Shown here: piece by piece, positions 5,048 through 62,335 of the stretch
Position numbering within the stretch: the stretch's first letter is position 1
Layout: every line of letters starts with the position of its first letter
NCBI GenBank assembly: GCA_009914755.4
Contig: CP068257.2
Coordinates: 43,680,001 to 43,744,000 of the forward strand
Length of the DNA stretch: 64,000 nucleotides
Direction: 5' to 3'
DNA from: the human T2T-CHM13v2.0 reference genome, Homo sapiens
Translations under genes and position numbers: made by a program
The notes under the pieces: model-generated
Databases searched by the model: none
Seen by the model: only the letters and a program-made list of their open reading frames with translations
Told to the model about the DNA's origin: nothing

Positions 5048-5350
5048 TGTGTGGGTGGGGAGTCATGGCCCCCTGGTGTGTGGATGGGGAGTCATGGCCC
5101 CCTCGTGTGTGGGTGGGGGCTCAGGGTCCCCTCGTGTGTGGGTGGGGGTCAGGGTCCCCTCGTGTGCATCCTGGGGTCAGGGTCCCCTCGTGTGTGGGTG
5201 GGGGTCAGGGTCCCCTCGTGTGCATCCTGGGGTCAGGGTCCCCTCATGTGTGGGTGGGGATCAAGGTCCCCTCATGTGTACGTGGGGGGTCAGGGTCCCC
5301 TCATGTGCATCCTGGGGTCAGGGTCCTCTCGTGTGCATCCTGGGGTTGCA
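5048..5350. repeat. Minisatellite, ~28-33 bp unit (gtgtgtgggtgggggtcagggtcccctc), ~10 copies
   Basis: Direct tandem repetition visible in the sequence. The ORFs 4851-5540, 5008-5376 and 5051-5611 are its translations. Confidence 0.85.
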
Positions 5351-8374: not shown

Positions 8375-8895
8375 AGTGGGAGGGAGGTGAGGGGGTGGGG
8401 GTGGGAGGGAGGTGAGGGGGTGGGGATGGGAGGGAGGTGAGGGGGGTGAGAGGGAGGTGAGGGGGGTGGGGGTGAGAGGGAGGTGAGGGTGGGGGCAGGA
8501 GGGAGGTGAGGGGCGTGGTGGTGGGAGGGAGGTGAGGGGGGTGAGAGGGAGGTGAGAGGGTGGGGGCAGGAGGGAGGTGAGAGGGTGGGGGCAGGAGGGA
8601 GGTGAGGGGGGTGGGGGCGGGAGGGAGGTGAGGGGGTGGGGGTGGGAGGGAGGTGAGGGGATCAGTGTGGGAGGGAGGTGACAGGGTGGGAGGGAGGTGA
8701 GGGGGTGGGGGTGGGAGGGAGGTGAGGGGCGTGGTGGTGGGAGGGAGGTGAGGGGGGTGAGAGGGAGGTGAGAGGGTGGGGGCAGGAGGGAGGTGAGGGG
8801 GTGGGGGTGGGAGGGAGGTGAGAGGGTGGGGGCAGGAGGGAGGTGAGGGGGTGGGGGTGGGAGGGAGGTGAGGGGGTAGGGTGGGGTGAAGGATG
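8375..8895. repeat. G-rich minisatellite (gggagggaggtgagggggtgggggt, period ~25-39 bp, ~15 copies)
   Basis: Tandem array. It explains the proline-rich minus-strand ORFs 7880-9346 and 8662-9216. Confidence 0.9.
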
Positions 8896-16711: not shown

Positions 16712-17222
16712 CGTGTGTGTGCCCATGTGTGGTATTTGTGTGTGTGCGTCTGTGCATCTGTGTCAGTGTGTCTGTGTCTGTGAGTCTGTGTGTCTGTATC
16801 TGTGTGTCGGTGCATCTCTGTGTCTGTGTGTGTCTGTGTCTGTGTGCCTGTGTGTGTGTCTGTCACTGTGTGTGTGTCTGTGTGTCTGTGCATCTGTGTG
16901 TCTGTGTGTGTCAGTGTGTCTGTGTGTGTGTCTCAGTGTGTCTGTATCTGTGTGTTGGTGCATCTGTGTGTCTGTGTCTGTGTCTGTGTGCTTGGGTGTC
17001 TGTCACTGTGCGTCCGTGTGTCTGTGCATCCGTGTGTCTCTGCATATGTGTGTGTGTGTCAGTGTGTCTGTATCTGTGTGTTGGTGCATCTCTATGTCTG
17101 TGTATGTGTGTCAATGTGTCTGTGTGCTTGTGTGTCTGTCACTGTGTCTGTGCATCCATGTGTCTGTGCGTCTGTGTGTCTGTGCATCCGTGTGTCTGTG
17201 CATATATGTCTGTGTACGCACA
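16712..17222. repeat. TG-rich simple repeat/minisatellite (TGTGTCTG / TGTGCATC variants), ~510 bp
   Basis: Low-complexity alternating purine-pyrimidine tract. It is the source of the Cys/Val-rich and His/Thr-rich ORFs. Confidence 0.9.
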
Positions 17223-19384: not shown

Positions 19385-19915
19385 CCTGTGCTACCTGGGC
19401 ATGTGCCCCCTCCCCAAATATGTGCCCCTCCCCAGACCTGTGCCCCCTCCCCAGATCTGTGCCCCTCCCCACACCTGTGCCCCCTCCCCGGATCTGTGCC
19501 CCCTCCCCGGACCTGTGCCCCCTCCCCAGACCTGTGCCCCCTCCCCGGACCTGTGCCCCCTCCCCAGACCTGTGCCCCCTCCCAGGCCTGTGCCCCCTCC
19601 CGGGCCTGTGCCCCCTCCCTGGATCTGTGCCCCCTCGCCGGGCCAGTGCCCTCTCCCTGGACCTGTGCCCCCTCCCCAGGCCTGTGCCCCCTCCCTGGAT
19701 CTGTGCCCCTCCCCGGACCTGTGCCCCCTCCCTGGATCTGTGCCCCCTCGCTGGGCCAGTGCCCTCTCCCTGGACCTGTGCCCCCTCCCCAGGCCTGTGC
19801 CCCCTCCCCGGACCTGTGCCCCCTCCCAGACCTGTGCCCCCTCCCCAGACCTGTGCCCCCTCCCCAGACCTGTGCCCCCTCCCCAGGCCTGTGCCCCCTC
19901 TCTGGGCCTGTGTTT
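19385..19915. repeat. Minisatellite, 20 bp unit (cctgtgccccctccccagac) x ~26 with higher-order variants
   Basis: Regular 20-bp period. Because 20 is not a multiple of 3, the frame rotates and gives Pro-rich ORFs on the + strand and Gly/Arg-rich ORFs on the - strand. Confidence 0.9.
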
Positions 19916-24420: not shown

Positions 24421-24743
24421 CCTTGCAGAGATTTAAATGTGGTAGTAATCACCTTTGTTATATTTTTCCTTCTGAAAATATTAGCCTTGGAAGGAAATGT
24501 TTTAACAACTAGCCACTGTTCTGTGTCTGGGCACATGTCCATAGTGAGCGTATTCTCTTATCTGCTTCATGCTGTTGCCAATTTACAGACCAGTCGCTCA
24601 GAAGCTGTGATTTTTCTTCTGAGCATAAGCTTATCCTCAATATGGAAACTTTAATTCAAAATACAGTTTGGTCTCATAGGAGCATTGTAGTCTTGCTGGC
24701 TGGAATTCACGTGGAGACCGATGCCAGTGCCTCTTTCCTCTGC

Positions 24744-25722
24744 ATCCATCCATCCATCCATCCATCCATCCATCCACCCACCCACCCATCCATCCATCCA
24801 TCCATCCATCCATCCATCCACCCACCCGTCCATCCATCCATCCATCCGCCCACCCGTCCATCTATCCACCCATCCATCCACCCACCCGTCCATCTATCCA
24901 CCCATCCATCCACCCACCCGTCCATCCATCCACCCATCCATCCATCTATTTATCCATCCATCCATCTATCCACCCACCCATCCATCCATCCACCCATCCA
25001 TCCATCCATCCACCCATCCACCCGTCCATCCATCCATCCATCCACCCACTCGTCCATCCATCCATCCATCCATCCATCCATCCATCCATCCACCCACCCA
25101 CCCGTCCATCCATCCACCCATCCATCCATCTATCCACCCACCCGTCCATCCATCCACCCACGCGTCCATCCATCCATCCATCCACCCACCCATCCATCCA
25201 TCCACCCACCCGTCCATCCATCCACCCATCCATCCATCCATCCACCCATCCATCCATCCATCCGTCCATCCACCCACCCATCCGTCCATCCACCCACCCA
25301 CCCGTCCATCCATCCATCCATCCATCCACCCATCCATCCATCCATCCATCCATCCACCCACCCGTCCATCCATCCACCCACCCGTCCATCCATCCACCCA
25401 TCCATCCATCTATCCACCCATCCATCCATCTATCCACCCACCCGTCCATCCATCCACCCACCCGTCCATCCATCCACCCATCCATCCATCCATCCATCCA
25501 CCCATCCACCCGTCCATCCATCCATCCACCCACTCGTCCATCCATCCATCCATCCACCCACCCGTCCATCCATCCACCCACCCGTCCATCCATCCATCCA
25601 CCCATCCATCTATCCATCCATCCATCCATCCATCCATCCATCCATCCATCCATCTATCCATCCATCCATCTATTTATCCATCCATCCATCTATTTATGCA
25701 TCCGTCCATCCATCCATCCCTC
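24744..25722. repeat. (CCAT/CCAC)n tetranucleotide-based simple repeat, ~1 kb
   Basis: catccatccatccacccacccgtc... repeats continuously. It is the source of the 374-aa and 433-aa 'HPSIHPS' ORFs (+) and the 'MDGWMDGW' ORFs (-). Confidence 0.95.
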
Positions 25723-26989
25723 CGTTTGCTCATTTCCACCCAGGAATCCATCATCTCTCAAACTAAGGTTTCGACATCATTCCTTCTTTTCAGAAAGTGC
25801 AAACCAAAGCTAAGACTGGCTCACACATGCCACGCGGGAGTTAGAGTGAGAGCATTTTTCAGATCCTTGTTCTCTTCTGGCCCCACCTCCCGCAGTTTCT
25901 GGAAGTCCCAGGACAGGGAAAAGGAGAGAAAGGCAGAAAAGAAATTATCGAGTGTGGCTCTTCCCTCTCCTCAGAGGAAATTGTTCACCTGCCACCCTCG
26001 GAAATTTAATTTTCAGTGTTAAAACTTGAAATTTTATAGTAGTATGTGTACCAAAGTTATAAAATGGGCAAACTTGTCTAAACGAGGATTCCTACATTGT
26101 TATGACATTTTCCCCAGAGAATCACAAGCTCTGAGATACACTTGTGAACCTTACTTATGCAGACATTCTCTTAAACTGGGATTCTTTCTCTCAGTTTACC
26201 TTAGGCTAACACAGAAACATATTTTGACACAGAAAGAATTTTTTCTCTTCATTGCTCAAGTCACCTGGAGGCAGCTCCTGCCTGGGGTGGATGCCTCCGA
26301 CCCCTGGGAATGACCCCTGCAGCCACCACTGAGCCCCCCACAGAAGGAGGCTCGTGCCTGGTCCAGCTTTCCCACCCGGGGTCTCTGTGGCTGGCTCCCC
26401 CCAGCTCGGGGCAGAAGCCTAATTCAGGGTTGTTCTGCTCAGTTGATCCAGTCGGACGCTAGGATTTGCCTGGGGGCCCGGCCTGCCAGCAGTACAGGTG
26501 AGGGGACGCAGGCTTGGTCACAAGCACCCCTGCTGACCTTCCCTACAGACCTGGCACATTTAATCTTCTTCTTTGGGGAGGAGAAGAGGATGCATTCAGA
26601 AATGCCTTTGCTGATGAGGCCCTCAGGAGCTTGTACTGGAATCACTCAAAATTCCCAAGTAGCCTGAGTGTCCTAATTCATTTCTGTGTACATCTGCCTA
26701 ATTCTCAATCCACGTCTAAGGTTAGAATGAACATTTGAATTAGCCATTCTGGACAACACACACACGCACTATACCATGCATTTAGATCTCTCTGTACCTT
26801 GCTCGTGTCAGCACAAACGCAGCCCCTCTCTTTTCAAAAGCCCGGTTCGTTTTCCAGCAGGCGCGTGCTTTCATTAGACTTTCCCTCCTGTGGGTTCTGG
26901 CAGATTTCCCAACACAAGCACGGCAGGAAGTGCATTGTGTTTGTAGAAAATCCAAAATAATCTCTAGGTGAGTGTTAGGATGAAAAATG

Positions 26990-27185
26990 AATTTAGTGTT
27001 GGTACAGGTTTTTGCTTGTTGTACTTTTTGTGGGGGAGGGTGATAAAAATATTCCAAAATTGATTGCGATGATGGTTGTGCAATTCTGTGAATATACTAA
27101 CAAGCACTGAACTCTATACTGCAAACAGGTGAACTGTATGGTATGTGAATTATATTTTAATAAAGCTGTTATTTTTAAAAAGTAA
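26990..27185 (+). mobile_element. Old LINE-1 3' end fragment
   Basis: '...gtgaattatattttaataaagctgtt' followed by an A-rich tail resembles L1M 3' termini. Confidence 0.4.
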
Positions 27186-27189
27186 ATTT

Positions 27190-27780
<591 letters not shown>

Positions 27781-27952
27781 TTAAAATCCAGGCCAAAGTG
27801 TGTGAGTGTGTGTGTGTTGCGGGTTGGGGGTTGCCAAGCTAAAGTTTACGTGGGAATGGACGGGGCAAGAACAGCAAGACGACCTTGAGGACGACCAAAG
27901 CGAGGGACTCGGCCCCCAGGTGCCAGTGCCCACCACAAAGCTATAGGAGTCC

Positions 27953-28170
27953 AGGCCAGGCCACACAGCGGTCAGTGAAGTGGGATGGAAGGTCCAGACC
28001 AGGCCACACAGCGGTCAGTGAAGTGGGATGGAAGGTCCAGACCAGGCCACACAGCGGTCAGTGAAGTGGGATGGAAGGTCCAGACCAGGCCACACAGTGG
28101 TCAGTGAAGTGGGATGGAAGGTCCAGACCAGGCCACACAGCGGTCAGTGAAGTGGGATGGAAGGTCCAGA
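27953..28170. repeat. Tandem repeat, 43 bp unit x 5 (ccaggccacacagcggtcagtgaagtgggatggaaggtccaga)
   Basis: Five near-identical direct copies. Confidence 0.9.
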
Positions 28171-28680
28171 AACACGCACATGGGACACTTGATCCACAAC
28201 AGATTCAGGATTGCAGACCAGGGGCACGGGGAACCTCTTTACTCGTGGTACCAGCTCAGTTGCAGATGCATACGGAACGCAGGAAGCCGGGGCCCCACGT
28301 TCCCCCATATGCAGTCTGCAAATGCAAACACGGAGGCTGAAACAAACACGTCTGGAAGAAATCACAGGGGAGCATCTCCCCTGCTGTGCCCAGGATCCAC
28401 GGGTGAGCAAGACAGGGTCCCTGTCCGGATGGGGTTTCATTTGGGGGTGCGGAGGGGGTGCAGAACCAAAAAAAAACCAAGCAAGCGAGTGAAACAGGGA
28501 GCTCGGAAGTGGGCGCTCGCATAGGCCAAGGTGGGGAAGGCTGGCAGGCACGTGTGTGTGCAAGGACACCAAATGTTGATCTGCAGAGCAAAGCTGGGCA
28601 ACAGCAACCACATTAACCAATAGACGTCGGCTTATCCAGGCCATGGGACGATGTGTAGCTGTTAACATAAAGGTCTATCT

Positions 28681-29316
<636 letters not shown>

Positions 29317-30120
29317 TCAGACAGAGCCTGTGGCAGAGGCCATGGAGGATTTTCTGGTGGCCACAGACTGTCCTGTGGAATTCCAGCTCGTCGTTGGTCA
29401 ATGGGATGAAGTTTGGCTTTAGAGGTGGATGAGACAAGTTGGGCTCTACCCAGAGCAAACTAAAGCTGCTCCTGGTCAACAAACACCAGCTTAGCTGGCC
29501 CAACCGATGCCTCGGCCCCGGACACACAGCTGGGGGGAGGCCGGGTGAGGAGACTCTGTCCGTGGGATTCCACCTGCCCCGTGGGAGTGAGAGCACAGGC
29601 ATCGCTCACGGCGCTGCAGACCATGTCCACCACAGTGCAGCGCAGCCCTCTAGGCTGCGCCCACATTGCCCAGGCTCCGCTCGGCCTCATCCTCGATTTC
29701 AGGCCTCTGTGACTTACCCTTGGGGCCCAGCATAGCACAGACACTATGTCTGTTTAAATAGGAGAGCATAGAAAAGCCGAGTCCCTGCAAGGGACAACCG
29801 GCTTGAGATGACAGTCAGGGTCTCAGGCGAGACGGCCTCCAGCCGCCTTCAGAGCAGGTGCCTATCAGCGGGGCCACGTGGTGGTTTCACAGTGCCTTGG
29901 TCCCCAGTGCCGAACCTGCCCCCTTGCCCGAAAGCCGGGCTAAGCCAAGCAGCTGTGGTTGACGGTTTTGCCTCAGGAATTGTGTGTGTAATTTAGCGAC
30001 AAAACAAAGCAGGCACAAGGAAGACTCAAACAGGGAGGTCCCTGAAGATGGGAGACAAATGACCAATGGACAGAATTTCATGTCCTATTGGTGGCCTAAC
30101 AGCTTGGAGAAGCATTCCAA

Positions 30121-32143
30121 CTGGATTTTCAACACAAGGAATTGGTTAGACGTCCCTGGCGGGGTGTGTCTCTTCCAGCTGGATTTTCAACACAGGGAAT
30201 TGGTAACACGTCCCTGGCGGGGTGTGTCGCTTCCAGCTGGATTTTCAACACAGGGAATTGGTTAGACGTCCCTGGCGGGGTGTGTCGCTTCCAGCTGGAT
30301 TTTCAACACAGGGAATTGGTTAGACGTCCCTGGCGGGGTGTGTCGCTTCCAGCTGGATTTTCAACACAGGGAATTGGTAACACGTCCCTGGCGGGGTGTG
30401 TCGCTTCCAGCTGGATTTTCAACACAAGGAATTGGTTAGACGTCCCTGGCGGGGTGTGTCACTTCCCACTGGATTTTCAACGCAGGGAATTGGTTACACG
30501 TCCCTGGCGGGGTGTGTCGCTTCCAGCTGGATTTTCAACACAGGGAATTGGTTAGACGTCCCTGGCGGGGTGTGTCGCTTCCCACTGGATTTTCAACACA
30601 GGGAATTGGTTAGACGTCCCTGGCGGGGTGTGTCGCTTCCCACTGGATTTTCAACGCAGGGAATTGGTTACACGTCCCTGGCGGGGTGTGTCGCTTCCAG
30701 CTGGATTTTCAACGCAGGGAATTGGTTAGACGTCCCTGGCGGGGTGTGTCGCTTCCAGCTGGATTTTCAACACAGGGAATTGGTTAGACGTCCCTGGCGG
30801 GGTGTGTCGCTTCCAGCTGGATTTTCAACACAGGGAATTGGTTAGACGTCCCTGGCGGGGTGTGTCGCTTCCCCCTGGATTTTCAACGCAGGGAATTGGT
30901 TAGACGTCCCTGGCGGGGTGTGTCGCTTCCCACTGGATTTTCAACGCAGGGAATTGGTTACACGTCCCTGGCGGGGTGTGTCGCTTCCAGCTGGATTTTC
31001 AACGCAGGGAATTGGTTAGACGTCCCTGGCGGGGTGTGTCGCTTCCAGCTGGATTTTCAACACAGGGAATTGGTTAGACGTCCCTGGCGGGGTGTGTCGC
31101 TTCCAGCTGGATTTTCAACACAGGGAATTGGTTAGACGTCCCTGGCGGGGTGTGTCGCTTCCCCCTGGATTTTCAACGCAGGGAATTGGTTACACGTCCC
31201 TGGCGGGGTGTGTCGCTTCCCACTGGATTTTCAACACAGGGAATTGGTTAGACGTCCCTGGCGGGGTGTGTCGCTTCCAGCTGGATTTTCAACACAGGGA
31301 ATTGGTAACACGTCCCTGGCGGGGTGTGTCGCTTCCCACTGGATTTTCAACACAGGGAATTGGTTAGACGTCCCTGGCGGGGTGTGTCGCTTCCCACTGG
31401 ATTTTCAATGCAGGGAATTGGTTAGACGTCCCTGGCGGGGTGTGTTGCTTCCAGCTGGATTTTCAACACAGGGAATTGGTTAGACGTCCCTGGCGGGGTG
31501 TGTCGCTTCCAGCTGGATTTTCAACACAGGGAATTGGTTAGACGTCCCTGGCGGGGTGTGTCGCTTCCAGCTGGATTTTCAACACAGGGAATTGGTTAGA
31601 CGTCCCTGGCGGGGTGTGTCGCTTCCAGCTGGATTTTCAACACAGGGAATTGGTTAGACGTCCCTGGAGGGGTGTGTCGCTTCCAGCTGGATTTTCAACA
31701 CAGGGAATTGGTTACACGTCCCTGGCGGGGTGTGTCGCTTCCAGCTGGATTTTCAACACAGGGAATTGGTTAGACGTCCCTGGCGGGGTGTGTCGCTTCC
31801 AGCTGGATTTTCAACACAGGGAATTGGTTAGACGTCCCTGGCGGGGTGTGTCGCTTCCAGCTGGATTTTCAACACAGGGAATTGGTTAGACGTCCCTGGC
31901 GGGGTGTGTCGCTTCCAGCTGGATTTTCAACACAGGGAATTGGTTAGACGTCCCTGGCGGGGTGTGTCGCTTCCAGCTGGATTTTCAACACAGGGAATTG
32001 GTTAGACGTCCCTGGAGGGGTGTGTCGCTTCCAGCTGGATTTTCAACACAGGGAATTGGTTAGACGTCCCTGGCGGGGTGTGTCGCTTCCCACTGGATTT
32101 TCAACGCAGGGAATTGGTTAGACGTCCCTGGCGGGGTGTGTAG
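30121..32143. repeat. Large minisatellite/VNTR: 58 bp unit (ctggattttcaacacagggaattggttagacgtccctggcggggtgtgtcgcttccag) x ~35, ~2.0 kb
   Basis: Strict 58-bp periodicity with a few recurring variant positions (cag/cac/ccc, aca/gca/tgc, tta/taa). The ORFs 30142-31889 are frame-rotating translations, since 58 is not divisible by 3. Confidence 0.97.
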
Positions 32144-32217
32144 CAGGATAAGAGGAGCCACGCAGAAATATCGGGCTGCAGTCTCTAATTGGGTTGCTGA
32201 TAATAATATTTGTATTC

Positions 32218-32543
32218 TTTTTTTTTTTTGGCTGTTGTTGTTGTTTTTTGTTTTTGTTTTTGAGACAGAGCCTCGCTCTGTCGTCCAGGCTGGAGTGCAG
32301 CAGTGCAGTCTCAGCTCGCTGCCGTCTCCGCCTCCCAGGTTCAAGCCATTCTCGTGCCTCAGCCTCCCCAAAAGCTGGGATTACGGGCACCCGCCACCAC
32401 GCCTGGCTAATTTGTGTATTTTTAGTGGAGACAGGGTTTCACCATGTTGGCCAGGCAAGTCTCAAACTCCTGACGTCATGTGATCCACCCGCCTCAGCCT
32501 CCCAAAGTGCTGGCATTACAGGCGTGAGCCACCGCGCCAGGCC
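32218..32543 (-). mobile_element. Alu SINE (minus orientation), long poly-T at the left
   Basis: Reverse-complement Alu consensus (gagacagagcctcgctctgtcgtccaggctggagtgcag ... ggcgtgagccaccgcgccaggcc). Confidence 0.95.
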
Positions 32544-32840
<297 letters not shown>

Positions 32841-35420
32841 TAATATTGGTATTCTTATTTTAAACTAGAATATATACAGTTTCAAATAAAGCAAATGAAG
32901 ACAAAACATGTTAATACCATCAGGGGCCAAGATTTTCGGGGTTAGAGAAAAAAGCATACAAGTATAAAGTCAAAGAAGTTGAAGAAACTCTCCAGTTTGA
33001 ATAGGAGGCACCTGTGTAAGCTCTTGAACTCATGCCATATGTTTGTTTCATAAAAATACATTTTTTCTGCTGTGTCATCTGGAATTGCCCAGAAGCAAAG
33101 ACGACTCAGGAGCCACAGTCCCCGGCACCCAGGCTGGCTCTGAGCCCCTCTCCCCACTCACCTGAACCAGGACTCTGGGAAGTGACTGAGCGCGGGCTGG
33201 GCAGCGGCACAGGGAGCTGCTGGAAGCCCAGGAGGCATCAGCAAGTGCAGTGTCACCCGCCACGCCGGCGTCCCCCTGTCGAGAGGGCAGCCCCCAGCTT
33301 GAAGGGCTCCCAGCGCCAGCCGGGGCACGACAGGCATCGAACAGACTAATGGTATAGTGATGGTAGAAAACATCAAATGTTTGAAACTCTGTGAATTTAT
33401 CAAACCGCTTTCAAAACCTCCTGTCCCTCTCGGATGCTGTTAGGGCGCCAAGCCGTGATGCTGCGAACTGGCAAATAGGGGGAGGTAGAAAGCACGTGTC
33501 CCGGCTTTCCTGCGGGAACTTTCTCACCCAGCCGAGCAGCTCACGGGAGAAAGCTCTTTCCAGAGGATCTCCAGCGAGTAAACGCAGAAGGAGTGATGGG
33601 ATCCGAAGATCACCGTTTTGCAAACCTTCAGGAAACGCCAGAGGTGAGCCACTGCCACGAGAGGGTCTGAGCCGTCAGGGCGGGAGTAGGGTAACACAGG
33701 GAAACCGAGTCCCTACAAGGAGAGAGCCGGCTTGAGACCACAGTTAGGGCCTGAGCCGAGGCAGCCTCCTGCTGTATTGAGCTCTAAGGCGGTCCAAAAA
33801 CTCCCTCTGCGGGGCCACCCTCTGCAGCAGCACAGGCTGGAGGGGGTGCCAGCATCCTGCCCTCCAGGGATCCCAGGACCAGGGGCAGGAGTACCCAGTC
33901 CTCCTCTGGGGACCTGTGTGACCAGGCTGACCATCCCCAGAAGAGAGGCACCAGGACGCCCTGTGCCCCCACAAGATGCCAAGGGCAGAGGCCAGCACTG
34001 CCTGGCAACCCCAAGGCTGGAGGAAATGCAGGGAGGAGCTCATCAAATCCGGCCAGGCAGCAGCAGCAGCAGCCCGAGAGTGGGCATCCCATGGGACGAA
34101 CGGCCCGGGATCCACACGCAGATGCCCAGAAAGCGAGAGGACAGAGGGCGCGGGGCGGGAAGACGCGCCTCGGCCGGGGCAGCAAGGAAAAGACGTTACA
34201 ACAGCCGTTTTCAGTCAGGGAAATGTGAACAGGCTGAATATTTAGGGATCCATTGTGATGATTATATTGTGACTGTGTTTTCTAAAAAGGAGAGATATTT
34301 TATCTGCTGGGGGCACATACCACAGTATTTATGGACACAGTGATAGGACGTCTTCATTTCATTTCAAATACCCCATGGGAGGATTTATGAGGCTAGAGGG
34401 AGGCTGGCTATCACTGAAGCTTGGTGATGCATTAATGGATTCATCTTCCTAATAAAAAGTTATAAAATTATGTAAGAGTGGATAAAAGAAGGACATTAAA
34501 CAAAGGAAGTAAAAGGAAATCTCCTTACTGGCGGAGTCCCTGGGTGGTCTGTCTGATTCCAGCTGATACATAATCGTTACTGAAGGTCATAGGTCAGGCT
34601 GCTGGGAGTCTCAGGCTCCAAGGGCTGAGGGCGGGGGCTCCAAGGCGGTCTGCAGACCCCCTCTGTGGGGTGACCCTCTGCAGCAGCACAGGCTAGAGGG
34701 GTCCTAGCATCCTGTCCGCCAGGATCCCAGTACCTGGAGTGGGAGGGCCCAGCCCTCCTCTGGGTTCTCCTGGGGGCCGAGGAGTTGGGCCCAGGGCATT
34801 GTCGGGACACCAGGCCCTCCCATCGTCGGCTTCCTATGAACGCTTAGGCCAGGCCAGGGCAGAACAGTGGGTGAGGGCCTGTGTCTGGGGCCTGTGTCTG
34901 GGGCCAGGCTGCCTGACTCCCAACCTCTTCTCTCCCCTTCCTGCTGTACAACCCTGGGCAAGTTAGTGACTTTGCTGGATCTCAAAGTCCTCATCTGTAA
35001 GACGAGCATCATGCTGTGGGTGTGAGGAACCAATGGGAGCACGGCCGGCTGGCGGCACCTGCCCGGTGCATGGATCCAGGGTGGCTGGAACCCAATTCCA
35101 CATTAACCTGGGGTCTGGCAGCCAGAACCACCAGTCTCTGGGAGACGACTGCCCGGGTCCCCAGCAGGCCAGAGTCAGGCCCTGTCTGGGTCCCCACAGC
35201 CCCCATGCCCGTGCTGTAAACCAGCCTCAGGGGCTGGGGAGGAGGAGTATTCCCAGCCATTTCCCAGGCAGAAGCCTTGGTGCTTCTGCTCTAATTAGGG
35301 CTGGGGGAGGGGACCTGGGGTCATCATCTCCAAGGTCAGTGGTCACCACATTCCAGGAATCACCACCAGCATTGGCCTCAAACTCCTCAGCACCAATTGA
35401 CATAAAATCCATGGGAATTC

Positions 35421-35723
35421 AGCTGAAGCTTCACGCCTACAATCCCAGCACTGTGGGAGGCCAAGGTGGGAGGATCGCTTGAGCCCCTGAGTTTGAGACC
35501 AGCCCAAGCAACACAGTGATACCCCAGCTCTACAAAAAGTACAAAAAACAATTAGCTGAGGGTGGTGGCACGTGCCTGTAGTCCCAGCTACTCAGGAGGC
35601 TGAGGCAAGAGGATTGTTTAAGGCCAGGAGTTCAAGGCTGCAGTGAGATATGATCGTGCCACCACACTGCAGCCTGGATGACAGAGCAAGACTCTGTCTC
35701 TAAAAACAAAACAAATGAACAAA
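35421..35723 (+). mobile_element. Alu SINE (5'-truncated) with TSD
   Basis: '..tcacgcctacaatcccagcactgtgggaggccaaggtgggagg..' to an A-rich tail, flanked by 'aaatccatggGaattc' and 'aaatccatggaaattcc'. Confidence 0.9.
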
Positions 35724-36179
35724 AAATCCATGGAAATTCCCTCAGAGCCAGAAAATTGCTTCCAGCCTTTGGGAACGGAGTGTGGTTTGAGCTGCACTGA
35801 CTGGGCACGGTGGGCCCCACTCTGGGAAGAGAGGTTTCTTTCTGCAGCTTGATCACCCCAGTGGACTAATGAGGCGAGCTGTTCCCAGGAAGTGTGCTTT
35901 ACGTAACTGCTGGTAATGAGACTGGTGGGGCCGTGCGTGTGTGTGCGTGTGCGTGCTCGTGACTCTGGAAGCCTTCAAGCTGCCAGCATTCATCCGTCTT
36001 CTCTAATGAGCCTCATGGGAACATTATCGCCCTGGAGGAAGGAGAAAGCGGGGCTGGGCTCTCTCGCCGGCAGCTCTGCTCCAGAACTGGAAGAACTTAC
36101 TGCTGTCAGGGACACTCCAGAGCTCCTGCCTCTGCTCATTCCTACATCACTCAAGTGAACAGCTCCTGAATTTAAAGAG

Positions 36180-36890
36180 GCACATGTACACATGCACAAG
36201 CATTCACACATGCACAAGCATTCACACATGCACATGGGCCACACACATATATGCGCACATGCATTCACGTGTGTACACACCACATGCATGTCCATAGGCA
36301 CACATCCTCACATGCTATATATTGCACATGTACATGCATTCACACAGGCACACACCACATGTATGTGCACAGAGAGCTGCATCACACAGCACATGTGTAT
36401 ATAGACTCATGTACCACACACATTACATGCATGTGCACACAAACGTATCACACAACACACATGCATATAAATTTGCACCACACACCACACCACACATATG
36501 CATACAGACATGCGCCCCATGCCACACATGTACGTGCACACAAACATGTATCACACAGCACATGTGCATATAGTCAGCACCACACACATCACACACATGT
36601 GTATACATATCACACATAGACTTACACATGTGCAATGCATTCCCACACACACCATGTACATTCATATACCCACATGCATCACACACACTGCCACATATAC
36701 ACGTGTGTTGCATATGTGTGCACATGTACCACATATACCGCATACGTGTGCATGGGTGCATGCCACACACACACACACACCATGTACCTGTGTGTAGGTG
36801 CATGCACTCACATATACCATAGCTATGTACACACACAATTCGTATGTACACATATCTGCACATAGACCTGCATTTACATATATACCTGCC
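36180..36890. repeat. CA/CATG-rich simple repeat tract (~700 bp)
   Basis: cacacatgcacaag / cacatgtatgtgcac low-complexity. It is the source of the His/Thr/Cys-rich ORFs 36192-36892. Confidence 0.9.
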
Positions 36891-39530: not shown

Positions 39531-40048
39531 GTACACAGACACAGGCACACAGGCAAAGGCACAGGCACACAGACACATACACACAGACACAGGCACACAG
39601 ACACAGGTACACAGGCACAGGCACATAGGCACATACACAGAGGCCCAGACACACAGACACAGGCACACAGACACACAGGCACACAGGCATAGGCACACAG
39701 GCACACAGGCACATACACAGAGGCCCAGACACACAGACACAGGCACACAGACACACAGGCACACAGGCATAGGCACACAGGCACACAGGCACATACACAC
39801 AGGTACATATACACAGGCACAGGCACACAGGCCCAAACACACAGACACAGGCACACAGGCACATACACACAGACACAGGCACACAGACACACAGGCACAC
39901 AGACATAGGCACACAGGCACACAGACATAGGCACACAGACACAGGCACACAGGCAAAGGCACAGGCACATAGGCACCTACACAGAGGTACAGGCGCACAG
40001 ACACAGGCACACAGGCACGTACACAGGTACAGGCACACAGGTGCACAC
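39531..40048. repeat. (CACAGG/CACAGA)n-type minisatellite, ~520 bp
   Basis: 'acacagacacaggcacacaggc' period ~6-12 bp, immediately abutting the MLT1 end. Confidence 0.9.
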
Positions 40049-49147: not shown

Positions 49148-49845
49148 ACAAAGACACTGTGAAGACTGAAAAATTAAGCCACACAGTGAGAGAAGCTACC
49201 GTACGTGTCATTTCTTAGGATTCACGGAGGTCTTTTGTCGAGAATGTATGAAGAACTCTGACAAATCAATGAGAATAAAGCACCCGGCTGGCAGAGGCAG
49301 GGACAGACCGAGGCGCGTCGCGATGTGGGTGTCCGGTGAGCACGTGGGAGGGGCCCAACCTCACCCATCGTCCGGGAGGTGCAGACTAAACCCTGAGACG
49401 CCGTCCTACCCCAGAGAGGCCAACATTTCAAAGATCCACAGTTCCAGGCGGTGGGCAGAGTGCCACGGCCGGTGTGGAAAATGGTGGCTGGCATCCACTC
49501 CAGTCTAACGTTTCGTACCTGGGACCCGGCAGTCCCAGGCCTCAGTGTGTGTTCTGGGTAGGAAGCACCTACTGGTGTTCACCCAAAGACATGAGATTGT
49601 TTATAGCATCATTATTCCCAATACCCCTGAACTGGAAAGAACTCAGATGACCACTGGCAGTGGGGTGGGGGTGGAACAGCCACGTAATAGAACACGGGGT
49701 GGCGATGAAACCAGCTCCTGCAATGTGCAGCCACATGGCTGCATCTCACAACCGGGAAGCACCTGTCAGGAGGCACTGTCCCTCCCAGCCTTCTGCAAGC
49801 ACAAGGTGGGCACCTGGGAGGAAGGATACCCTTCATGCTGCGGCC
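49148..49845 (+). repeat. Left arm of a ~0.7 kb inverted repeat pair (partner 54737-55432)
   Basis: The reverse complement of 54737-55432 matches this stretch at ~93% identity. ORFs 49248-49508(+)/55072-55347(-) and 49545-49907(+)/54700-55035(-) give near-identical peptides, confirming it. Confidence 0.9.
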
Positions 49846-50045: not shown

Positions 50046-51198
50046 TAGGGCCAGAAACACGGGCCGACGGCTCCCTGCCAGTGAGTCACTCTCGGGGCAC
50101 TGCTGAGTCATAAGTTCCTTTCACTTTGGATGGATTTTTAATTGTATGTTCTGAACAGATGGAAATTTCTTGGCTGTTGGGAGTCAAACTGTGGATATTT
50201 GGTGAGTGTATCCAAAAGGAAGTGGCCGCAGTATGAGTCACCCAGGCCATGTGAACTTTGATGGGGGAAACAGAACCAGCAACTTCTGCTGGTTCACGAC
50301 CAAAGGAAGCAGTGCCGGAGCGTGAACAATGGGGTGCAGGCGGCCAAGTTCTGAGTGGCTGCTGGGAGCGCTTTCCCACTGTCTGCGGAGCCCGTGACAC
50401 CACAGTGTCCCTCGAACATGCGGGGATGGCCGGCCAAATCACCCAGCCCGCTTTCACGAGCGACCGCTGAGCTGTGTTGCGGCAGTCCCTCCCAGGGCCG
50501 CTGGGCCAGGCCCAGCTGCGGGGTAGAGGAGAGGATGGGGAGAGGGGCCTGAGATGGGGCAGGGAAGTCTGTGAGCTCAGCCCGGGACCTGGGGCCAAGC
50601 ACCAGGAGGCCAGGGGGAGTCTCCAGGGGCTGGGGCTGGAGCCGCATCAGAGAGGAAAGGGGTGTTTGAAAAAGGGGCAGGGCCTGGGACCCAGGAAACT
50701 GTTCTTCCAGAGACACCCGTGAAGCTGAGCTTTGCCTCTCAGGGAAGCTGTGACCCCACGGGTGCTGCCCAGAGAGATCGGGCCAGGTGGAGCCAAGATG
50801 GACTGGAATTCCCCGACGGGGACAAGGGGCCGGACGAGGCTGACTTGCCCTGTCTGATGAATGGTCAGGTTTGCTTTTTCTCCTGAAAACACGAGGCAGT
50901 GATCCCGGCCAGCTAATTCCAGCAGACTGGAGACGGGATGGTGGAGAATGAGGCTGTGGGCGGGAAGAGCAGATGGGACTCGCCAGCATCCTCACGGCAG
51001 GGCCGCGCTATTGCCCTCCCTCCCCTCCTACTCTCTGGGGTCCCAGGAGCCCCAGATACGCAATGCTGCCAGGCGATTTCTGGCGCCCCGCAGACCCCTG
51101 CCCCTGGAGTTGGGCCAGGTCCCGGCTGGAGCAAAGGGGGCTCCTTCAAGCCCGCTCCTCCCTGTCAAACCCGAGGAGCCTGACAGGCGCAGCGTCAC

Positions 51199-51358
51199 CA
51201 GCGTCACCGGGCCATAGTGAGCGGCCAAGCCAGCGTCACCGGGCCATAGTGAGCGGCCAAGCCAGCGTCACCGGGCCATAGTGAGCCGCCAAGCCAGCGT
51301 CACCGGGCCATAGTGAGCCGCCAAGCCAGTGTCACCGGGCCATAGTGAGCGGCCAAGC
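51199..51358. repeat. Tandem repeat, 34 bp unit x ~5 (gcgtcaccgggccatagtgagcggccaagccagc)
   Basis: Near-identical direct copies. Confidence 0.9.
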
Positions 51359-52115
51359 CTTGGTCTGCCAGAGCCGGCCGCACCAGAAGGATTTCTGGGT
51401 CCCCAGTCCTGGAGGAGCACACGGTTTACACCAGGCCTTGGGAGGGGAAGAGGCAAGGCGTGGGCCCAGCCCTCACTCCCCAGGAGAAACCCTGTTTGAG
51501 CGGCAGAGGAGACTGGAGAGACCCCAGGGCGGGGATCCCTGAGAGGAGAGAAACCCGGAATTCATCCACGGAGGCGTTCACCCAGAGGAGACCCGGAGCT
51601 TCTCCAGGAGAGGCTGGATTGCTCCAACAGGGGCCCTGAGGAGCTGATGGCAGGAGCGGAAGGCAGCTCTGACTCGTGCGTCTGACTCCAGGTGTGGCCG
51701 TTGGGGCTACAGTGGGACCAGCCTGTTGTCACTGAACCCACAAAGTGCCTCCGAGCGCGGGTGGAGAGAGGGGGACCTCCCACCGTCTGCTGGCCTTGAA
51801 TCTTGAATCTAATTCCCGTCTGTGCTTTGATGGGAGAGGCACTGGGAGCGGGCGGCTTTTTCAGTTCCTTTTATCTTGAATGGCCTTTGGGGGATTTTCA
51901 CAGATTCTGAGTTCAAAGCCCAGGGAGGTGTGGGAACGTGACATTCCTCACCGCATTCCTCACCGCATTCCTCTGTAAACCAGGCGGTGTTGGCACCCAT
52001 GAGCCTGTGTCTTCTATGACATCAGGAGTTTTATCCCTCACGTCAGAAATCAGGGTTCCAGGCGCCTTGGTTTTTCTTGGCGCCAGCGGCTTGGCTATAG
52101 AAGAAAAACTGAAGG

Positions 52116-52522
<407 letters not shown>

Positions 52523-54736
52523 TCAGCGGCGGGGCGGGTGGTGGTGTGCACTCGGCCCCTCTGAGATGCGAGGTTGCAGTATTGGCATGTATGAGAGGTG
52601 GTGCGTGAGCTGCTTCCAGGGAGGTGCTCCCACTGGGTCGCCTGGTGAGGGGGACAGCCTGGCGGGGTTGGCCGTGGCACAACCTCCTTCTGGCAGCGAA
52701 GGACCCTCAGGCCGAGGGCTGACCAGAAGTCAGCATGGGCTCAGATGCGTTTCCAGCCCACTATGGGAAGTTCACACAGAATTAAACAGAGGAGTGAGAG
52801 TCCGACCCCCTCCACCTGGCCCCGTTCTCCCGGCCACCTCACGGGTCCTTGGGGTTCAGACTCAGACCTGTGGGGTGAGAGAGAGCAGAAGGTGCTGGGG
52901 AGAGGAGCTGGAGGTTGGAGAAGGGAGGTTGGATGCAGTTGGCGGCCCTCCAGGCTCTGGAGGGTCAGTGGGGCCTGGGAAGAGAGCAGCCGCAGAGGTG
53001 ACTCAGGCCCAGCTGGCGGGGGAGGGACGCAGCCCTCACTGCAACTGGACGTGGGGTGGGGATCCCAGGCCTGGTCCTCCTGGCTCTGGAGACCAGCAAC
53101 CAGCCTGGCCTCTGGGGGCCACTTCCAGCCAGTGCAGTGCTGTGCGTCCCACGCCAGCCTTTCCCCGACCTCTGCACCAGTTCCCTCCACGCCCGGCCCA
53201 TGGGCATCCGGCCCCAGCCGCTCATTCCAGATATAAGTACACGTGAGCCCCTCTCCCACTGCTGGCTGCCAAGGCTGGGCTGTGGGGTGGCGCCTTCTAT
53301 CTCTGCAGATTCCTCTCCTCTCTGCCTCTGCCTGGTGAAACACTCCTCCATAACCATCATGTACAGTCCCTGACGACTGCACAAAGGCTAGGGAAATAAG
53401 GGGACCCCTGGGAAAGGTACTCCTGGGGGTCCCAGATGGGGAGGTTCTGATGCGTGTCCAGGCATGGCCAGCGTGGCTGAGGAGACGAGGCTGGGTGTCG
53501 CCTGGAGCTCCAGCAGGGAGACCAGGCATCCTGGAGGCTGTGCCTGGCCTGTCCGTCCCACACGGGGCAGAGCTAACCCAGGCCACATTGCTGGCCTGCC
53601 ATGCACTGTGCAAAAAGCATTTGGAGAGAGAAAGAAAAGTTTGTGTCCTCAGTTACAAGGCACAGGGTGAAGTCCTTGTCCTTGGGATCCCATGGTCAGC
53701 CCCTGGGCGTGGCTTTTGAGCCCAGTGGGTCCAGAGGGGACTCAGTGAGGTCTTGTCTTGCAGAGTGTGTGTGGCAGTGAGGGGAAGAGGTTCATCTGCT
53801 GCAGGGCCTGGGAACTCCTGACACTTGGTGTGGCCTTGACCACCGGGAGCAAACGCAGTGCACACGGCAACCGGCTCTGACAAGGCAGATGCTCCTGCCC
53901 AGGGCAGGTCGGACCCTGGCTGAGGGAGACACAAACCTGAACGGGCTCTGACAAGGCAGATGCTCCTCCCCAGGGGGTTTCAGACTCTGGCTGAGGGAGA
54001 CACAAACCTGGGAGTGGAGGGGAGTTTAGCACTGGATGGCCCACATGCAGCTAGGATGGCCGCAGTACCCAGGCTGGAGCGAGCGGCTTCTGGGGCCCAG
54101 GAGAGGCCCTCGAGCCCGCTGTCCTCCCGGCTGTCATCTCCTGGCAGGGATCTGCTGGGGAAATAGAATCTGACGCAACGTATTTTCCAACCCAGAAAAC
54201 CTCTTCAGAAAGGTGGAAGAGAAAAAGCAATTCTATTACTGAGTAAGCGTTAAAGCCAGAATGCGAGGTGCGGCTGGGGCAGCCCACTGAAGGCATCGCA
54301 GAGACAGAAACCTCACTCCTTACAGCCGAGTGAACACTGAGCACCTGTGCCTTCAGGGGGGTTTGCAGTTTGGCGAGTGAGGCCCGCTGCTCTGAGGCGC
54401 TAATCTCCCAAGGAAACGTTCCTGAGTTGAGCCTGGGCAGAGGCTTCCTTAGCTAGAAAACAGATTTACATACATTTGAAAAGGACAGAGAAAGACTTAG
54501 AAGAGAAGAGAAGAGGGAGACTCTGTCCTTATTCTGCACAGGGAGGACGGTGTGTGTCCTCAGTTCCTCGCAGGCCACCCTGCAGCTCTCCTGCTGGGCA
54601 GCCCATGGGACACAGAGCGAGAGGACGGTTTGGAGGTGGAGGAAGCGAGGGAAGGACCCTGAGTTGGCTGGGACGTCCAGGCACCGTGGGGATGGAGCCT
54701 TATGCCCGGGGCCCCTGGGAGAAGGGCTGTAGTGAG

Positions 54737-55432
54737 CCACAGCACAAAGGACATCCTTCCTCCCAGGTGCCCACCTTGTGCTTGCAGGATCCTGGGAGGG
54801 ACAGCGCCTCCTGACAGGTGCTTCCCAGTTGTGAGATGCAGCCATGTGGCTGCACATTGCAGGAGCAGGTTTCATCGCAGCCACGTGTTCTATTATGTAG
54901 CTGTTCCACCCCTACCCCACTGCCAGTGGTCGTCTGAGTTCTTTCCAGTTTAGGGGTATTGGGAATAATGCTGCTATAAACAATCTCATGTCTTTGGGTG
55001 AACACCAGTAGGTGCTTCCTACCCAGAACACACACTGAGGCCTAGGACTGCCGGGTCCCAGGTACGAAACGTTAGACTGGAGTGGATGCCGGCCACCGTT
55101 TTCCACACCGGCCGTGGCACTCTGCCCACCGCCTGGAACTGTCAATCTTTGAAATGTTGGCCTCTCTGGGGTAGGTCGGCGTCTCAGGGTTTAGTCTGCA
55201 CCTCCCGGACGATGGGTGAGGTTGGGCCCCTCCCACGTGCTCACCGGACACCCGCATCGCGACGCGCCTCGGTCTGTCCCTGCCTCTGCCAGGCAGGCGC
55301 TTTATTCTCATTGATTTGTCAGAGTTCTTCATACATTCTCGACACAAGTCCTCTGTGAATCCTAAGAAATGACACGTACGGTAGCTTCTCTCACTGTGTG
55401 GCTTAATTTTTCAGTCTTCACAGTGTTTTTGA
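54737..55432 (-). repeat. Right arm of the inverted repeat pair (partner 49148-49845)
   Basis: See the left arm. The outer boundary pairs 'caaaAacactgtgaagactgaaaaattaagccacacagtgagagaagctac' (rc) with 49148 onward. Confidence 0.9.
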
Positions 55433-61429: not shown

Positions 61430-61680
61430 GGGAGGAGGAGGGACACTGCAGGCTGGGGGATGGAGGAGGGGGAGGAGGAGGGACACTGCAGGCTGGGGGG
61501 ATGGAGGAGGGGGAGGAGCAGGGACACTGCAGGCTGGGGGATGGAGGAGGGGGAGGAGCAGAGGCACTGCATTTGGGGAATGGAGGAGGGGCAGGAGCAG
61601 AGGCACTGCAGGCTGGGGGATGGAGGCAGGGAGGAGCAGAGGCACCGCAGGCTGGGGGGGATGGAGGAGGGTGCCCCATC
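61430..61680. repeat. Minisatellite, ~40 bp unit (ggacactgcaggctgggggatggaggagggggaggaggag) x ~6
   Basis: Direct tandem copies. Source of the Gly/Glu/Arg-rich ORFs 61161-61900. Confidence 0.9.
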
Positions 61681-62255: not shown

Positions 62256-62335
62256 AGGTGGCCTGGAGATGATGGCTTAGAGATGGCCTGGACAGGCCTA
62301 GAGATGATAGCCTGGAGGTGGCCTGGAGGTGGCTC
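62256..62335. repeat. Minisatellite (ggcctggagatg-type), right block resuming after the NUMT
   Basis: 'ggaggtggcctggagatgatggcttagagatggcctggacaggcctagagatgatagcctggaggtggcctggaggtgg' has the same units as 61881-62063. Confidence 0.85.

What the first reader, a model, noticed from the sequence alone, without database searches (positions are those of the whole stretch)
30121..32143. 2 kb VNTR of a 58-bp unit (~35 copies) directly abutting an Alu-Alu pair
The array is very regular (units >95% identical, with a small set of recurring variant positions that define sub-repeat types), which suggests recent expansion or ongoing homogenisation. Arrays of this size and regularity are typically hypervariable in copy number between individuals. 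The array ends within ~75 bp of two head-to-tail minus-strand Alus. It is not CRISPR-like, since no unique spacers separate the units.
Basis: seen in the sequence. Interest (0 to 1): 0.5.

Follow-up and report, generated by a model that had tools for sequence, protein, structure and literature searches.

The report
Ordinary CpG-rich 58-bp minisatellite (VNTR)
This is a real but ordinary non-coding primate minisatellite: 35 near-identical 58-bp units in tandem, shaped by duplication and exchange between units, with no sign of a gene, an RNA, or any link to the neighbouring Alu elements.

Summary
Tandem Repeats Finder reports a 58-bp period, 34.9 copies, 96% matches and no indels at 30115-32141. 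Three more flank bases make it exactly 35 units (30115-32144). Only 10 columns vary.

The array has sharp edges in unique DNA. It is non-coding, matches no RNA family, and no coding exon was detected within about 4 kb. The two minus-strand Alus are real, but they share one 15-bp target-site duplication 58 bp beyond the array. They are therefore independent insertions into the flank.

Several internal features point to turnover by multi-unit duplication and exchange or conversion between units:
- a duplicated 5-unit block;
- a near-pure block at the 3' end;
- all four combinations at every pair of recurrent variant sites;
- more diverged edge units.

The array keeps 99 of 105 consensus CpGs and qualifies as a CpG island. 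Neighbouring Alus have lost most of theirs, which suggests recent homogenisation or germline hypomethylation.

Each unit carries E-box, CCAAT, GACGTC and CACCC-type motifs, so a copy-number-dependent regulatory role is possible but untested. I could not test copy-number polymorphism, the orthologues or the chromosomal locus, because no primate sequence was available to the tools. Verdict: a known kind of element, of low interest.

The parts
30115..32144 (.). Tandem array of exactly 35 units of 58 bp. The consensus on the + strand is TTCCAGCTGGATTTTCAACACAGGGAATTGGTTAGACGTCCCTGGCGGGGTGTGTCGC. GC is 55%, there are 107 CpGs, and CpG observed/expected is 0.71.
   Evidence: TRF, unit-by-unit map, shift identities and the exact 35.0 units, CpG-island scan.
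30115..31448 (.). Variant-rich 5' two-thirds (units 1-23), averaging 1.87 differences per unit from the consensus. It contains all the multi-site variant types: CA or CC at columns 5-6, G at column 20, C at column 35, and A at column 33.
30637..31216 (.). Local 5-unit (290-bp) block duplication. Units 10-14 have types E-G-C-C-H and units 15-19 have types E-G-C-C-I.
   Evidence: Unit-type string ABCCBDECFEGCCHEGCCIFBFJCCCKLCCCCKC-. Shift identity shows a slight maximum at 5 units, 0.9667.
31449..32086 (.). Near-pure 3' block (units 24-34), averaging 0.27 differences per unit. Every unit has the intact TCCAGCTGGA palindrome.
   Evidence: Permutation test P=0.0135 for any 11-unit run this pure.
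32145..32202 (.). Unique, non-repeat right flank between the array and the Alu target site. It shows no similarity to the unit beyond chance.
   Evidence: Local alignment of the flank to the unit is no better than shuffles: 343-346 of 500 shuffles score at least as well.
30057..30114 (.). Unique left flank, which is not a degenerate repeat copy. The array edge is sharp.
   Evidence: 258 of 500 shuffles score at least as well.
32203..32217 (.). Left copy of the target-site duplication that brackets the Alu pair (ATAATATTTGTATTC).
   Evidence: It matches 32840-32854 (ATAATATTGGTATTC) at 14 of 15 positions.
32218..32543 (-). Alu 1. On the + strand the T-rich tail lies at the left and the body is at 32257-32543. 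Identity to an AluY-type consensus is 85%.
   Evidence: blastn and Rfam Metazoa_SRP partial hits on the minus strand. Ten of 26 consensus CpGs are intact.
32554..32839 (-). Alu 2, which is older (78% identity to the consensus) and lies head-to-tail with Alu 1.
   Evidence: blastn and Rfam SRP hits. Three of 26 consensus CpGs are intact.
32840..32854 (.). Right copy of the target-site duplication that brackets the Alu pair.

Best explanation
This is a single-locus, non-coding, CpG-rich minisatellite (VNTR) in a GC-rich, minisatellite-dense stretch of a primate, presumably human, chromosome.

A 58-bp segment of unique DNA was amplified into 35 head-to-tail copies. The array is kept homogeneous by repeated misaligned events between units. 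These would be unequal sister-chromatid or allelic exchange, gene-conversion patches and replication slippage, acting on blocks of one to several units rather than by point mutation.

The 10-bp palindrome TCCAGCTGGA and the CAGGGA-N12-TCCCTG hairpin in each unit could stabilise out-of-register single-strand intermediates. The most recent amplification is the near-pure block at the 3', Alu-proximal end.

The array most likely has no sequence-specific function, and its main consequence is expected to be copy-number polymorphism.

Shown here: the structure, the sharp edges, the non-coding status, the block duplication, the reshuffling of variants, the CpG retention, and the independence from the Alus.

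Inferred: the molecular mechanism of turnover, the recency, the polymorphism, and the neutrality.
For: - The array is perfectly phased: period 58, no indels, 96% matches. In-register identity is 95-97% against 25% off-register.
- Variation is confined to 10 columns, and the variant types are themselves multi-copy (B, E and F three times each; G and K twice each). This shows that variants spread by duplication.
- The 5-unit block E-G-C-C-x occurs twice in tandem.
- An 11-unit near-pure block lies at the 3' end (P=0.0135).
- Columns 5/6, 20 and 35 show all four combinations in each pairwise comparison, which indicates exchange or conversion with breakpoints inside units.
- The edge units (1 and 35) are among the most diverged, with 3 and 4 differences.
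- 99 of 105 consensus CpGs are intact and only 2 have decayed to TpG or CpA. Five nearby Alus keep 3-12 of 24-26 and have lost 12-16 each to TpG/CpA.
- It is non-coding. 58 is not a multiple of 3, and a pure consensus array is open for at most 57 (+) or 32 (-) codons. The longest real ORF has no homologue.
- There is no Rfam family or tRNA in the array and no Pfam domain in open frames across 26000-36500.
- A single-stranded dimer of the unit folds better than all 200 shuffles on both strands (z = -3.65 and -3.58).
- The pattern matches published long-read descriptions of human VNTRs: several motifs, changes mostly by duplication and deletion rather than unit by unit, and segmented arrays such as the VPS53 one (PMC8327921).
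- The window holds more than 20 separate minisatellites, in line with VNTR-rich regions (PMC7608644).
Against: - Copy-number polymorphism, the defining population property of a VNTR, was not tested, because only one allele is available.
- The four-gamete pattern could in principle come from recurrent mutation.
- CpG retention could reflect germline hypomethylation (a true CpG island) rather than youth, which would hint at function.
- A 10-bp palindrome is expected by chance in about 5% of random 58-mers (my estimate), so the structure argument is weak.
- The unit is dense in transcription-factor-like motifs, and neutrality is assumed rather than shown.
- The chromosomal locus and any host gene are unknown.
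Confidence: 0.85

Rival explanations
1. The array is a copy-number-dependent cis-regulatory element. It would be a 2-kb CpG-island-like stack of 35 copies of an E-box (CAGCTG), a minus-strand CCAAT box, a GACGTC (ACGT-core) palindrome and a GGCGGGGTGTG (GC/CACCC-type) element. Such a stack could act as an enhancer, an alternative promoter or a methylation-sensitive silencer of a nearby gene, with strength scaling with repeat number. This does not exclude its being a VNTR.
For: - Motif counts in the array: CAGCTG 24, ATTGG 35, GACGTC 27, GGGTG 35, GGCGGGG 33.
- The array is the largest segment in the 64-kb window that meets CpG-island criteria (30101-32500, GC 0.545, observed/expected 0.69).
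- CpGs are retained while adjacent Alus have decayed, as expected if the array is unmethylated in the germline.
- The literature reports VNTRs that affect transcription (the background cited in PMC8327921 and PMC7608644).
Against: - The motif matches are short consensus strings. The CCAAT flanks do not fit the extended NF-Y consensus, and GACGTC lacks the outer T and A of a full CRE (my inspection, no PWM test).
- No exon or promoter-type island was found nearby.
- Ten units carry CA or CC variants that destroy the E-box, so there is no sign of constraint on it.
- High CpG content is equally explained by recent amplification of a unit that happened to hold 3 CpGs.
- No chromatin, methylation or expression data could be consulted.
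Confidence: 0.15
2. The array is the internal VNTR of a retrotransposon (SVA-like or LTR-borne), or otherwise one member of a dispersed or satellite repeat family, rather than a locally born single-locus minisatellite.
For: - It lies next to Alu sequence.
- Some primate LTRs and SVAs carry internal VNTRs. One paper returned by the search concerns LTR10 (PMC466953); I did not read it in detail.
Against: - Both flanks are unique and unrelated to the unit.
- No (CCCTCT)n hexamer occurs anywhere in the window.
- The Alus are complete elements with their own target-site duplication, separated from the array by 58 bp of unique DNA.
- There is no second copy of the unit in 62 kb of surrounding sequence.
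- No match was found in the viral, prokaryotic or metagenomic contig collections.
Confidence: 0.05
3. The repeat encodes a repetitive protein or a structured RNA.
For: Two open frames of 137 and 149 codons cross the variant-rich part of the array.
Against: - The period is not a multiple of 3.
- The consensus carries an in-frame TAG every third unit. The long ORFs exist only where the G35C variant removes it.
- The ORF has no homologue among 5.8 billion clustered proteins.
- There are no Rfam hits in the array even at E<=1 and no tRNA.
Confidence: 0.01
4. The regularity is an assembly artefact, such as a collapsed or mis-expanded repeat or consensus polishing that erased variants.
For: Nothing specific. 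Long pure repeat blocks are where assemblers err.
Against: The array contains an ordered, non-periodic pattern of 12 unit types, private variants and clean unique junctions. Collapse or polishing artefacts would not produce that. I could not test this further without reads.
Confidence: 0.02

Closest known systems
Human non-coding VNTRs described by long-read studies (Course et al. 2021, PMC8327921: for example the 84-bp ZNF667, 54-bp SORL1 and 33-bp VPS53 arrays)
   Same: - The unit is tens of bp long, the array is kb-scale, and the location is non-coding.
- There are several recurring motif variants.
- Change is driven by multi-unit duplication and deletion.
- The organisation is segmented, with a variant-rich part followed by a pure part, as described for VPS53.
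   Different: The specific 58-bp motif was not found in any paper or held supplement that I could search. Whether the expansion is human-specific or polymorphic is unknown.
Classical hypervariable GC-rich minisatellites (Jeffreys type, such as MS32, MS31A and CEB1; from my own knowledge)
   Same: - It is a tandem array of 10-100-bp units in a minisatellite-dense, GC-rich region.
- Interspersed variant repeats are suitable for MVR mapping.
- Variation is asymmetric along the array, which recalls polar turnover.
   Different: - It lacks the GGGCAGGANG core and any PRDM9 13-mer.
- Strand asymmetry is weak (GC skew 0.19, purines 50%).
- It has no G-quadruplex potential, unlike CEB1 and CEB25.
- The unit is longer than in most classical loci.
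CpG-island tandem repeats with promoter activity, such as the subtelomeric 61-29-37-bp TERRA promoter repeats (from my own knowledge)
   Same: It is a tandem repeat that itself meets CpG-island criteria, in a region with subtelomere-like repeat density.
   Different: The unit size and sequence differ. No TTAGGG tract occurs in the window. There is no evidence of transcription, and I judged the unit's partial resemblance to the CTCF consensus a poor match (by eye, not a formal test).
SVA internal VNTR
   Same: It is a GC-rich VNTR with units tens of bp long that sits beside Alu-derived sequence.
   Different: There is no CCCTCT hexamer. The Alus are full, independently inserted elements with their own TSD, and the flanks are unique.
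CRISPR array
   Same: It consists of regularly spaced direct repeats.
   Different: There are no spacers, because the repeats abut at a period equal to the unit length. The context is a primate genome with Alus. The only CRISPR-DR Rfam hit lies outside the array at E=0.78, which is noise.

Membership tests
Minisatellite / VNTR | Repeat unit of about 7-100 bp | tested here: met
   The period is 58 bp.
Minisatellite / VNTR | Head-to-tail tandem arrangement without spacers, spanning hundreds of bp to tens of kb | tested here: met
   There are 35.0 contiguous units with 0% indels over 2,030 bp.
Minisatellite / VNTR | Copy number varies between individuals or haplotypes | not testable with these tools
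   Only one allele is available, and no human or ape assemblies are in the searchable collections (searches returned nothing).
Minisatellite / VNTR | Single locus, that is, not a dispersed or satellite family | tested here: inconclusive
   The unit has no other copy in the 64-kb window. The genome-wide test was not possible.
Jeffreys-type hypervariable minisatellite | Shared G-rich core (GGGCAGGANG) or a recombination-hotspot motif (PRDM9 CCNCCNTNNCCNC) | tested here: not met
   Both have 0 matches in the array on either strand.
Jeffreys-type hypervariable minisatellite | Marked purine/pyrimidine or G/C strand asymmetry | tested here: not met
   The unit has G19, C13, A10 and T16, giving a GC skew of 0.19 and a purine fraction of 0.50.
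Jeffreys-type hypervariable minisatellite | Polarity of variation or mutation towards one end | tested here: inconclusive
   In this one allele the 3' 11 units are near-pure and the 5' 23 units are variant-rich (P=0.0135). Real polarity needs many alleles or observed mutants.
G-quadruplex-forming minisatellite (CEB1/CEB25 type) | Four or more G-runs of at least 3 with short loops per unit | tested here: not met
   The G3+N1-7 x4 pattern finds nothing on either strand.
CpG island (Gardiner-Garden and Frommer criteria) | Length over 200 bp, GC at least 50%, CpG observed/expected at least 0.6 | tested here: met
   The array has GC 0.552 and observed/expected 0.71 over 2,027 bp. The merged island is 30101-32500.
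CpG island (functional sense) | Unmethylated in the germline, or associated with a promoter | not testable with these tools
   The only evidence is indirect: 94% CpG retention against 12-46% in nearby Alus. No exon or Pfam hit lies nearby.
SVA / retrotransposon-internal VNTR | A (CCCTCT)n 5' hexamer, Alu-like and SINE-R parts, and an element-level TSD enclosing the VNTR | tested here: not met
   There is no hexamer repeat in the window. The TSD encloses only the Alu pair and not the array, and the flanks are unique.
Subtelomeric TERRA-promoter repeats | 61-, 29- and 37-bp repeat tracts next to TTAGGG repeats | tested here: not met
   The period is 58, and no TTAGGG trimer occurs in the window even with 2 mismatches.
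CRISPR array | Repeats separated by unique spacers of similar length | tested here: not met
   The units abut, with a start-to-start spacing of 58 bp equal to the unit length.
Coding tandem repeat | Period divisible by 3, an open frame through the array, and protein homologues | tested here: not met
   58 mod 3 = 1, stops recur in all six frames of the consensus array, and there are no homologues.

The most novel reading that the evidence does not exclude
The array is a germline-unmethylated, tandem-repeat CpG island. Its 35 stacked E-box, CCAAT, ACGT-core and GC/CACCC modules would make it a copy-number-tunable enhancer or cryptic promoter for a gene in a VNTR-dense, possibly subtelomeric and brain-expressed, locus. 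Repeat length and the E-box-destroying CA/CC variants would then act as a natural expression dial, possibly one that expanded in the human lineage.
Probability: 0.12. Interest if true: 0.45.

Novelty: already known. Interest (0 to 1): 0.15.

Why it matters
As it stands, it matters little. It is one of tens of thousands of primate VNTRs (more than 55,000 in the human genome according to PMC8327921), and it behaves like the textbook kind.

Its practical value is as a marker. A 2-kb array with about 12 unit types is well suited to variant-repeat mapping of haplotypes and to studying turnover in long-read pedigrees.

It would matter more if repeat length or the E-box-breaking variants correlated with methylation or expression of a neighbouring gene. 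CpG-island-like VNTRs are plausible hidden causes of association signals that SNP arrays miss.

Tried and rejected
1. Protein-level search with the longest ORF across the array (window 30396-30842). There were 753 word-sharing candidates and none was significant, so ORF hits could not be used to fetch other alleles or orthologues.
2. Exact-pattern scans with a 39-nt degenerate unit against the metagenome, prokaryotic genome and viral contig collections all returned 0. These collections evidently hold no primate DNA, so no cross-assembly comparison was possible.
3. Literature. The terms '58-bp' plus VNTR, six phrasings of '58-bp repeat/minisatellite', and a 23-nt piece of the unit found only mycobacterial, organelle or unrelated hits. 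Supplements of two VNTR papers were either not held or lacked the motif.
4. Locus and gene identification.
   - GC3-periodicity ranking of 701 open frames found no convincing exon, only an L1 tail and a COX1-like fragment.
   - A typed Pfam scan of all open frames of at least 45 aa in 26000-36500 found nothing.
   - The locus remains unidentified.
5. Origin of the unit from its flanks. Neither flank aligns to the unit better than shuffles, so I rejected 'degenerate outer copies'.
6. Global higher-order repeat. Identity is flat at 95-97% for all shifts, so I rejected it. Only a local 5-unit duplication exists.
7. G-quadruplex, PRDM9 13-mer, chi-like and Jeffreys-core motifs are all absent.
8. 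RNA-gene origin. There is no Rfam or tRNA signal in the array.
9. A mechanistic role for the Alus. I rejected it because a single TSD encloses the pair 58 bp away from the array.
10. A CTCF-site reading of the CCCTGGCGGGG segment. By eye about 10 of 15 consensus positions match, but the critical GGC block is mismatched. I did not pursue it, and it was not a formal PWM test.

Full report
**1. The observation**

Tandem Repeats Finder reports one array in 29000-33500. It spans 30115-32141 with period 58, 34.9 copies, 96% matches, 0% indels and a score of 3711. The sequence itself shows the units abutting with no spacers.

Cutting the array in 58-bp steps shows that 15 of the 34 full units are identical to the consensus TTCCAGCTGGATTTTCAACACAGGGAATTGGTTAGACGTCCCTGGCGGGGTGTGTCGC. 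All differences fall in 10 columns (5, 6, 19, 20, 23, 33, 35, 46, 56, 57) and give about 12 unit types. The three bases after TRF's end (AGC against CGC) still match 2 of 3, so the array is exactly 35.0 units, 30115-32144.

Identity between the array and itself is 95-97% at shifts of 1 to 17 units. At off-register shifts it averages 25%, with a maximum of 36%. The repeat is therefore real, sits at the stated place, and is far beyond chance.

**2. The surroundings**

The window is primate DNA. It has 13 Alu copies, an L1 tail and a mitochondrial COX1-like fragment. It is 56% GC and carries more than 20 separate minisatellites plus a 1-kb (CATC)n tract. This is the repeat landscape reported for VNTR-rich, often subtelomeric, human regions (PMC7608644). 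No TTAGGG tract is present, so it does not directly adjoin a telomere.

The unit occurs nowhere else in the window. The 58-150 bp on either side align to the unit no better than shuffled sequence, so the array has sharp edges in unique DNA.

A single 15-bp target-site duplication, ATAATATT[T/G]GTATTC, brackets the pair at 32203-32217 and 32840-32854, with 14 of 15 positions matching. The Alus therefore occupy one insertion site in unique flank, 58 bp beyond the array. The adjacency is real but incidental.

**3. What the array is not**

- *Not coding.* 58 is not divisible by 3. A pure consensus array is open for at most 57 codons on the + strand and 32 on the - strand. The 137- and 149-codon ORFs exist only where the G35C variant removes the in-frame TAG, and the longer one has no homologue.
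- *No RNA family or tRNA.* Nothing matches inside the array, even at permissive thresholds.
- *No coding exon detected nearby.* No Pfam domain appears in any open frame of at least 45 aa between 26000 and 36500, and GC3-periodicity ranking found no convincing exon anywhere in the window.
- *Not an SVA-type element.* There is no CCCTCT hexamer, the flanks are unique, and the TSD excludes the array.
- *Not CRISPR-like.* There are no spacers.

**4. Internal anatomy and what it implies**

The unit-type string is ABCCBDECFEGCCHEGCCIFBFJCCCKLCCCCKC-.

- *Variants spread by duplication.* Several variant types are multi-copy (B, E and F three times each; G and K twice each).
- *Multi-unit duplication.* Units 10-14 (EGCCH) and 15-19 (EGCCI) form a tandem 5-unit, 290-bp duplication. 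There is no array-wide higher-order period.
- *Uneven purity.* Units 24-34 are almost pure consensus (0.27 differences per unit against 1.87 in units 1-23). A run this pure arises in 1.35% of permutations.
- *Reshuffled variants.* The three recurrent sites (columns 5/6, 20 and 35) show all four combinations in every pairwise comparison. Without recurrent mutation, this requires exchange or conversion with breakpoints inside units.
- *Diverged edges.* The two edge units are among the most diverged, with 3 and 4 differences. This is the usual signature of arrays homogenised from within (my own knowledge).

Taken together these are the marks of unequal exchange, gene conversion and slippage acting on one to several units at a time. 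They match what long-read surveys describe for human VNTRs, including segmented arrays such as the one in VPS53 (PMC8327921).

Each unit also holds a perfect 10-bp palindrome (TCCAGCTGGA) and a 6-bp-stem hairpin (CAGGGA-N12-TCCCTG). A two-unit single strand folds better than all 200 shuffles on both strands (z about -3.6). This could stabilise slipped intermediates. However, I estimate that a 10-bp palindrome occurs by chance in about 5% of random 58-mers, so I treat this as weak support. All units of the pure 3' block keep the palindrome, while 10 units elsewhere carry CA or CC variants that break it.

**5. CpG content**

The array has 107 CpGs, GC 0.552 and CpG observed/expected 0.71, against 0.34 for the whole window. 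It is the largest segment in the window that meets CpG-island criteria.

Of 105 consensus CpG positions, 99 are intact and only 2 have decayed to TpG or CpA. Five nearby Alus keep 3-12 of 24-26 consensus CpGs and have lost 12-16 each to TpG/CpA. The neighbourhood has therefore undergone methylation-driven decay and the array has not.

There are two readings:
- The units share a very recent common ancestry through homogenisation or expansion. I count about 5-6 private substitutions in 2,030 bp, roughly 0.3%, against 15-22% divergence of the adjacent Alus from their consensus.
- The array is protected by germline hypomethylation.

The data here cannot separate these. Given the independent evidence of turnover, the first is the more economical.

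**6. Possible function**

The unit is dense in short transcription-factor-type strings. The array holds 24 copies of the CAGCTG E-box, 35 of the minus-strand CCAAT, 27 of GACGTC, 35 of GGGTG and 33 of GGCGGGG. With the CpG-island character, this leaves room for a copy-number-dependent regulatory role, which I rate at about 0.12-0.15.

Several points argue against it. The matches are only short consensus strings. The E-box is freely lost in 10 units. There is no exon or promoter-type island nearby. No chromatin or expression data could be consulted.

**7. Comparison with known kinds, and novelty**

The array meets the structural definition of a minisatellite or VNTR in unit size, tandem arrangement and span. 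I could not test the population criterion of copy-number polymorphism.

It is not a classical Jeffreys-type locus, because the core motif, the PRDM9 motif and strong strand asymmetry are all absent. It is also not a G-quadruplex minisatellite, an SVA VNTR or a TERRA-type subtelomeric promoter repeat.

No paper or held supplement mentions this 58-bp motif. Standard TRF-based genome annotation would list an array like this, so I classify the finding as an already known kind of feature. I could not determine its chromosomal locus or host gene.

**8. Verdict**

This is a real, regular, probably young or actively homogenised VNTR. It is of low general interest unless population or epigenomic data show a regulatory effect.

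Noticed in passing
window 62106-62276 (-): An open frame translates to ...[35 protein letters not shown] and matches Pfam COX1 (PF00115, E=6.7e-5, profile positions 20-64). It is a probable nuclear mitochondrial DNA fragment (NUMT), wedged between two minisatellites at 61881-62059 and 62260-62327.
   Followed up: partly
window 49149-49844 and 54736-55431: A non-Alu inverted duplication with 696-nt arms, 95% complementary and 4,891 nt apart. It was also visible as near-identical ORF translations on opposite strands. Such a structure could form a large cruciform or mediate an inversion polymorphism.
   Followed up: no
window 16737-17215 and 39539-40041: Two roughly 500-bp arrays of a related 8/22-bp motif, (TGTGTCTG)n-type and its reverse complement (ACACAGGC)n-type, lie in inverted orientation 22.7 kb apart, with 72% complementarity over 215 nt. 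They bracket the region that contains the 58-bp array.
   Followed up: no
window 24743-25723: A very long tetranucleotide tract, (CATC)n, with about 245 copies and 84% matches. It also scores as CpG-island-like by the window criteria only because C x G is low there.
   Followed up: no
window 1-64000 (for example 5046-5335, 8365-8885, 19402-19912, 27949-28170, 51198-51359, 61423-61671): The minisatellite density is exceptional, with more than 20 separate arrays of 11-216-bp periods in 64 kb. Several are very regular and short: 43 bp x5.2 at 98%, 46 bp x3.1 at 97%, and 32 bp x5.1 at 97%. This suggests a VNTR-hotspot, subtelomere-like region, although no TTAGGG tract is present.
   Followed up: partly
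window 164-475 (+): An open frame beginning TMEYYAAIKRNE... resembles the C-terminal end of L1 ORF2 (recognised from memory). It has no Pfam hit at E<=0.01.
   Followed up: partly
window 28681-28967 (+) versus 32218-32543 (-): An Alu on the + strand 1.15 kb left of the array and the Alu pair on the - strand to its right form a weak inverted pair around the array (220-nt arms, 74% complementary, 3.2 kb apart). It is probably too diverged and too distant to matter.
   Followed up: no
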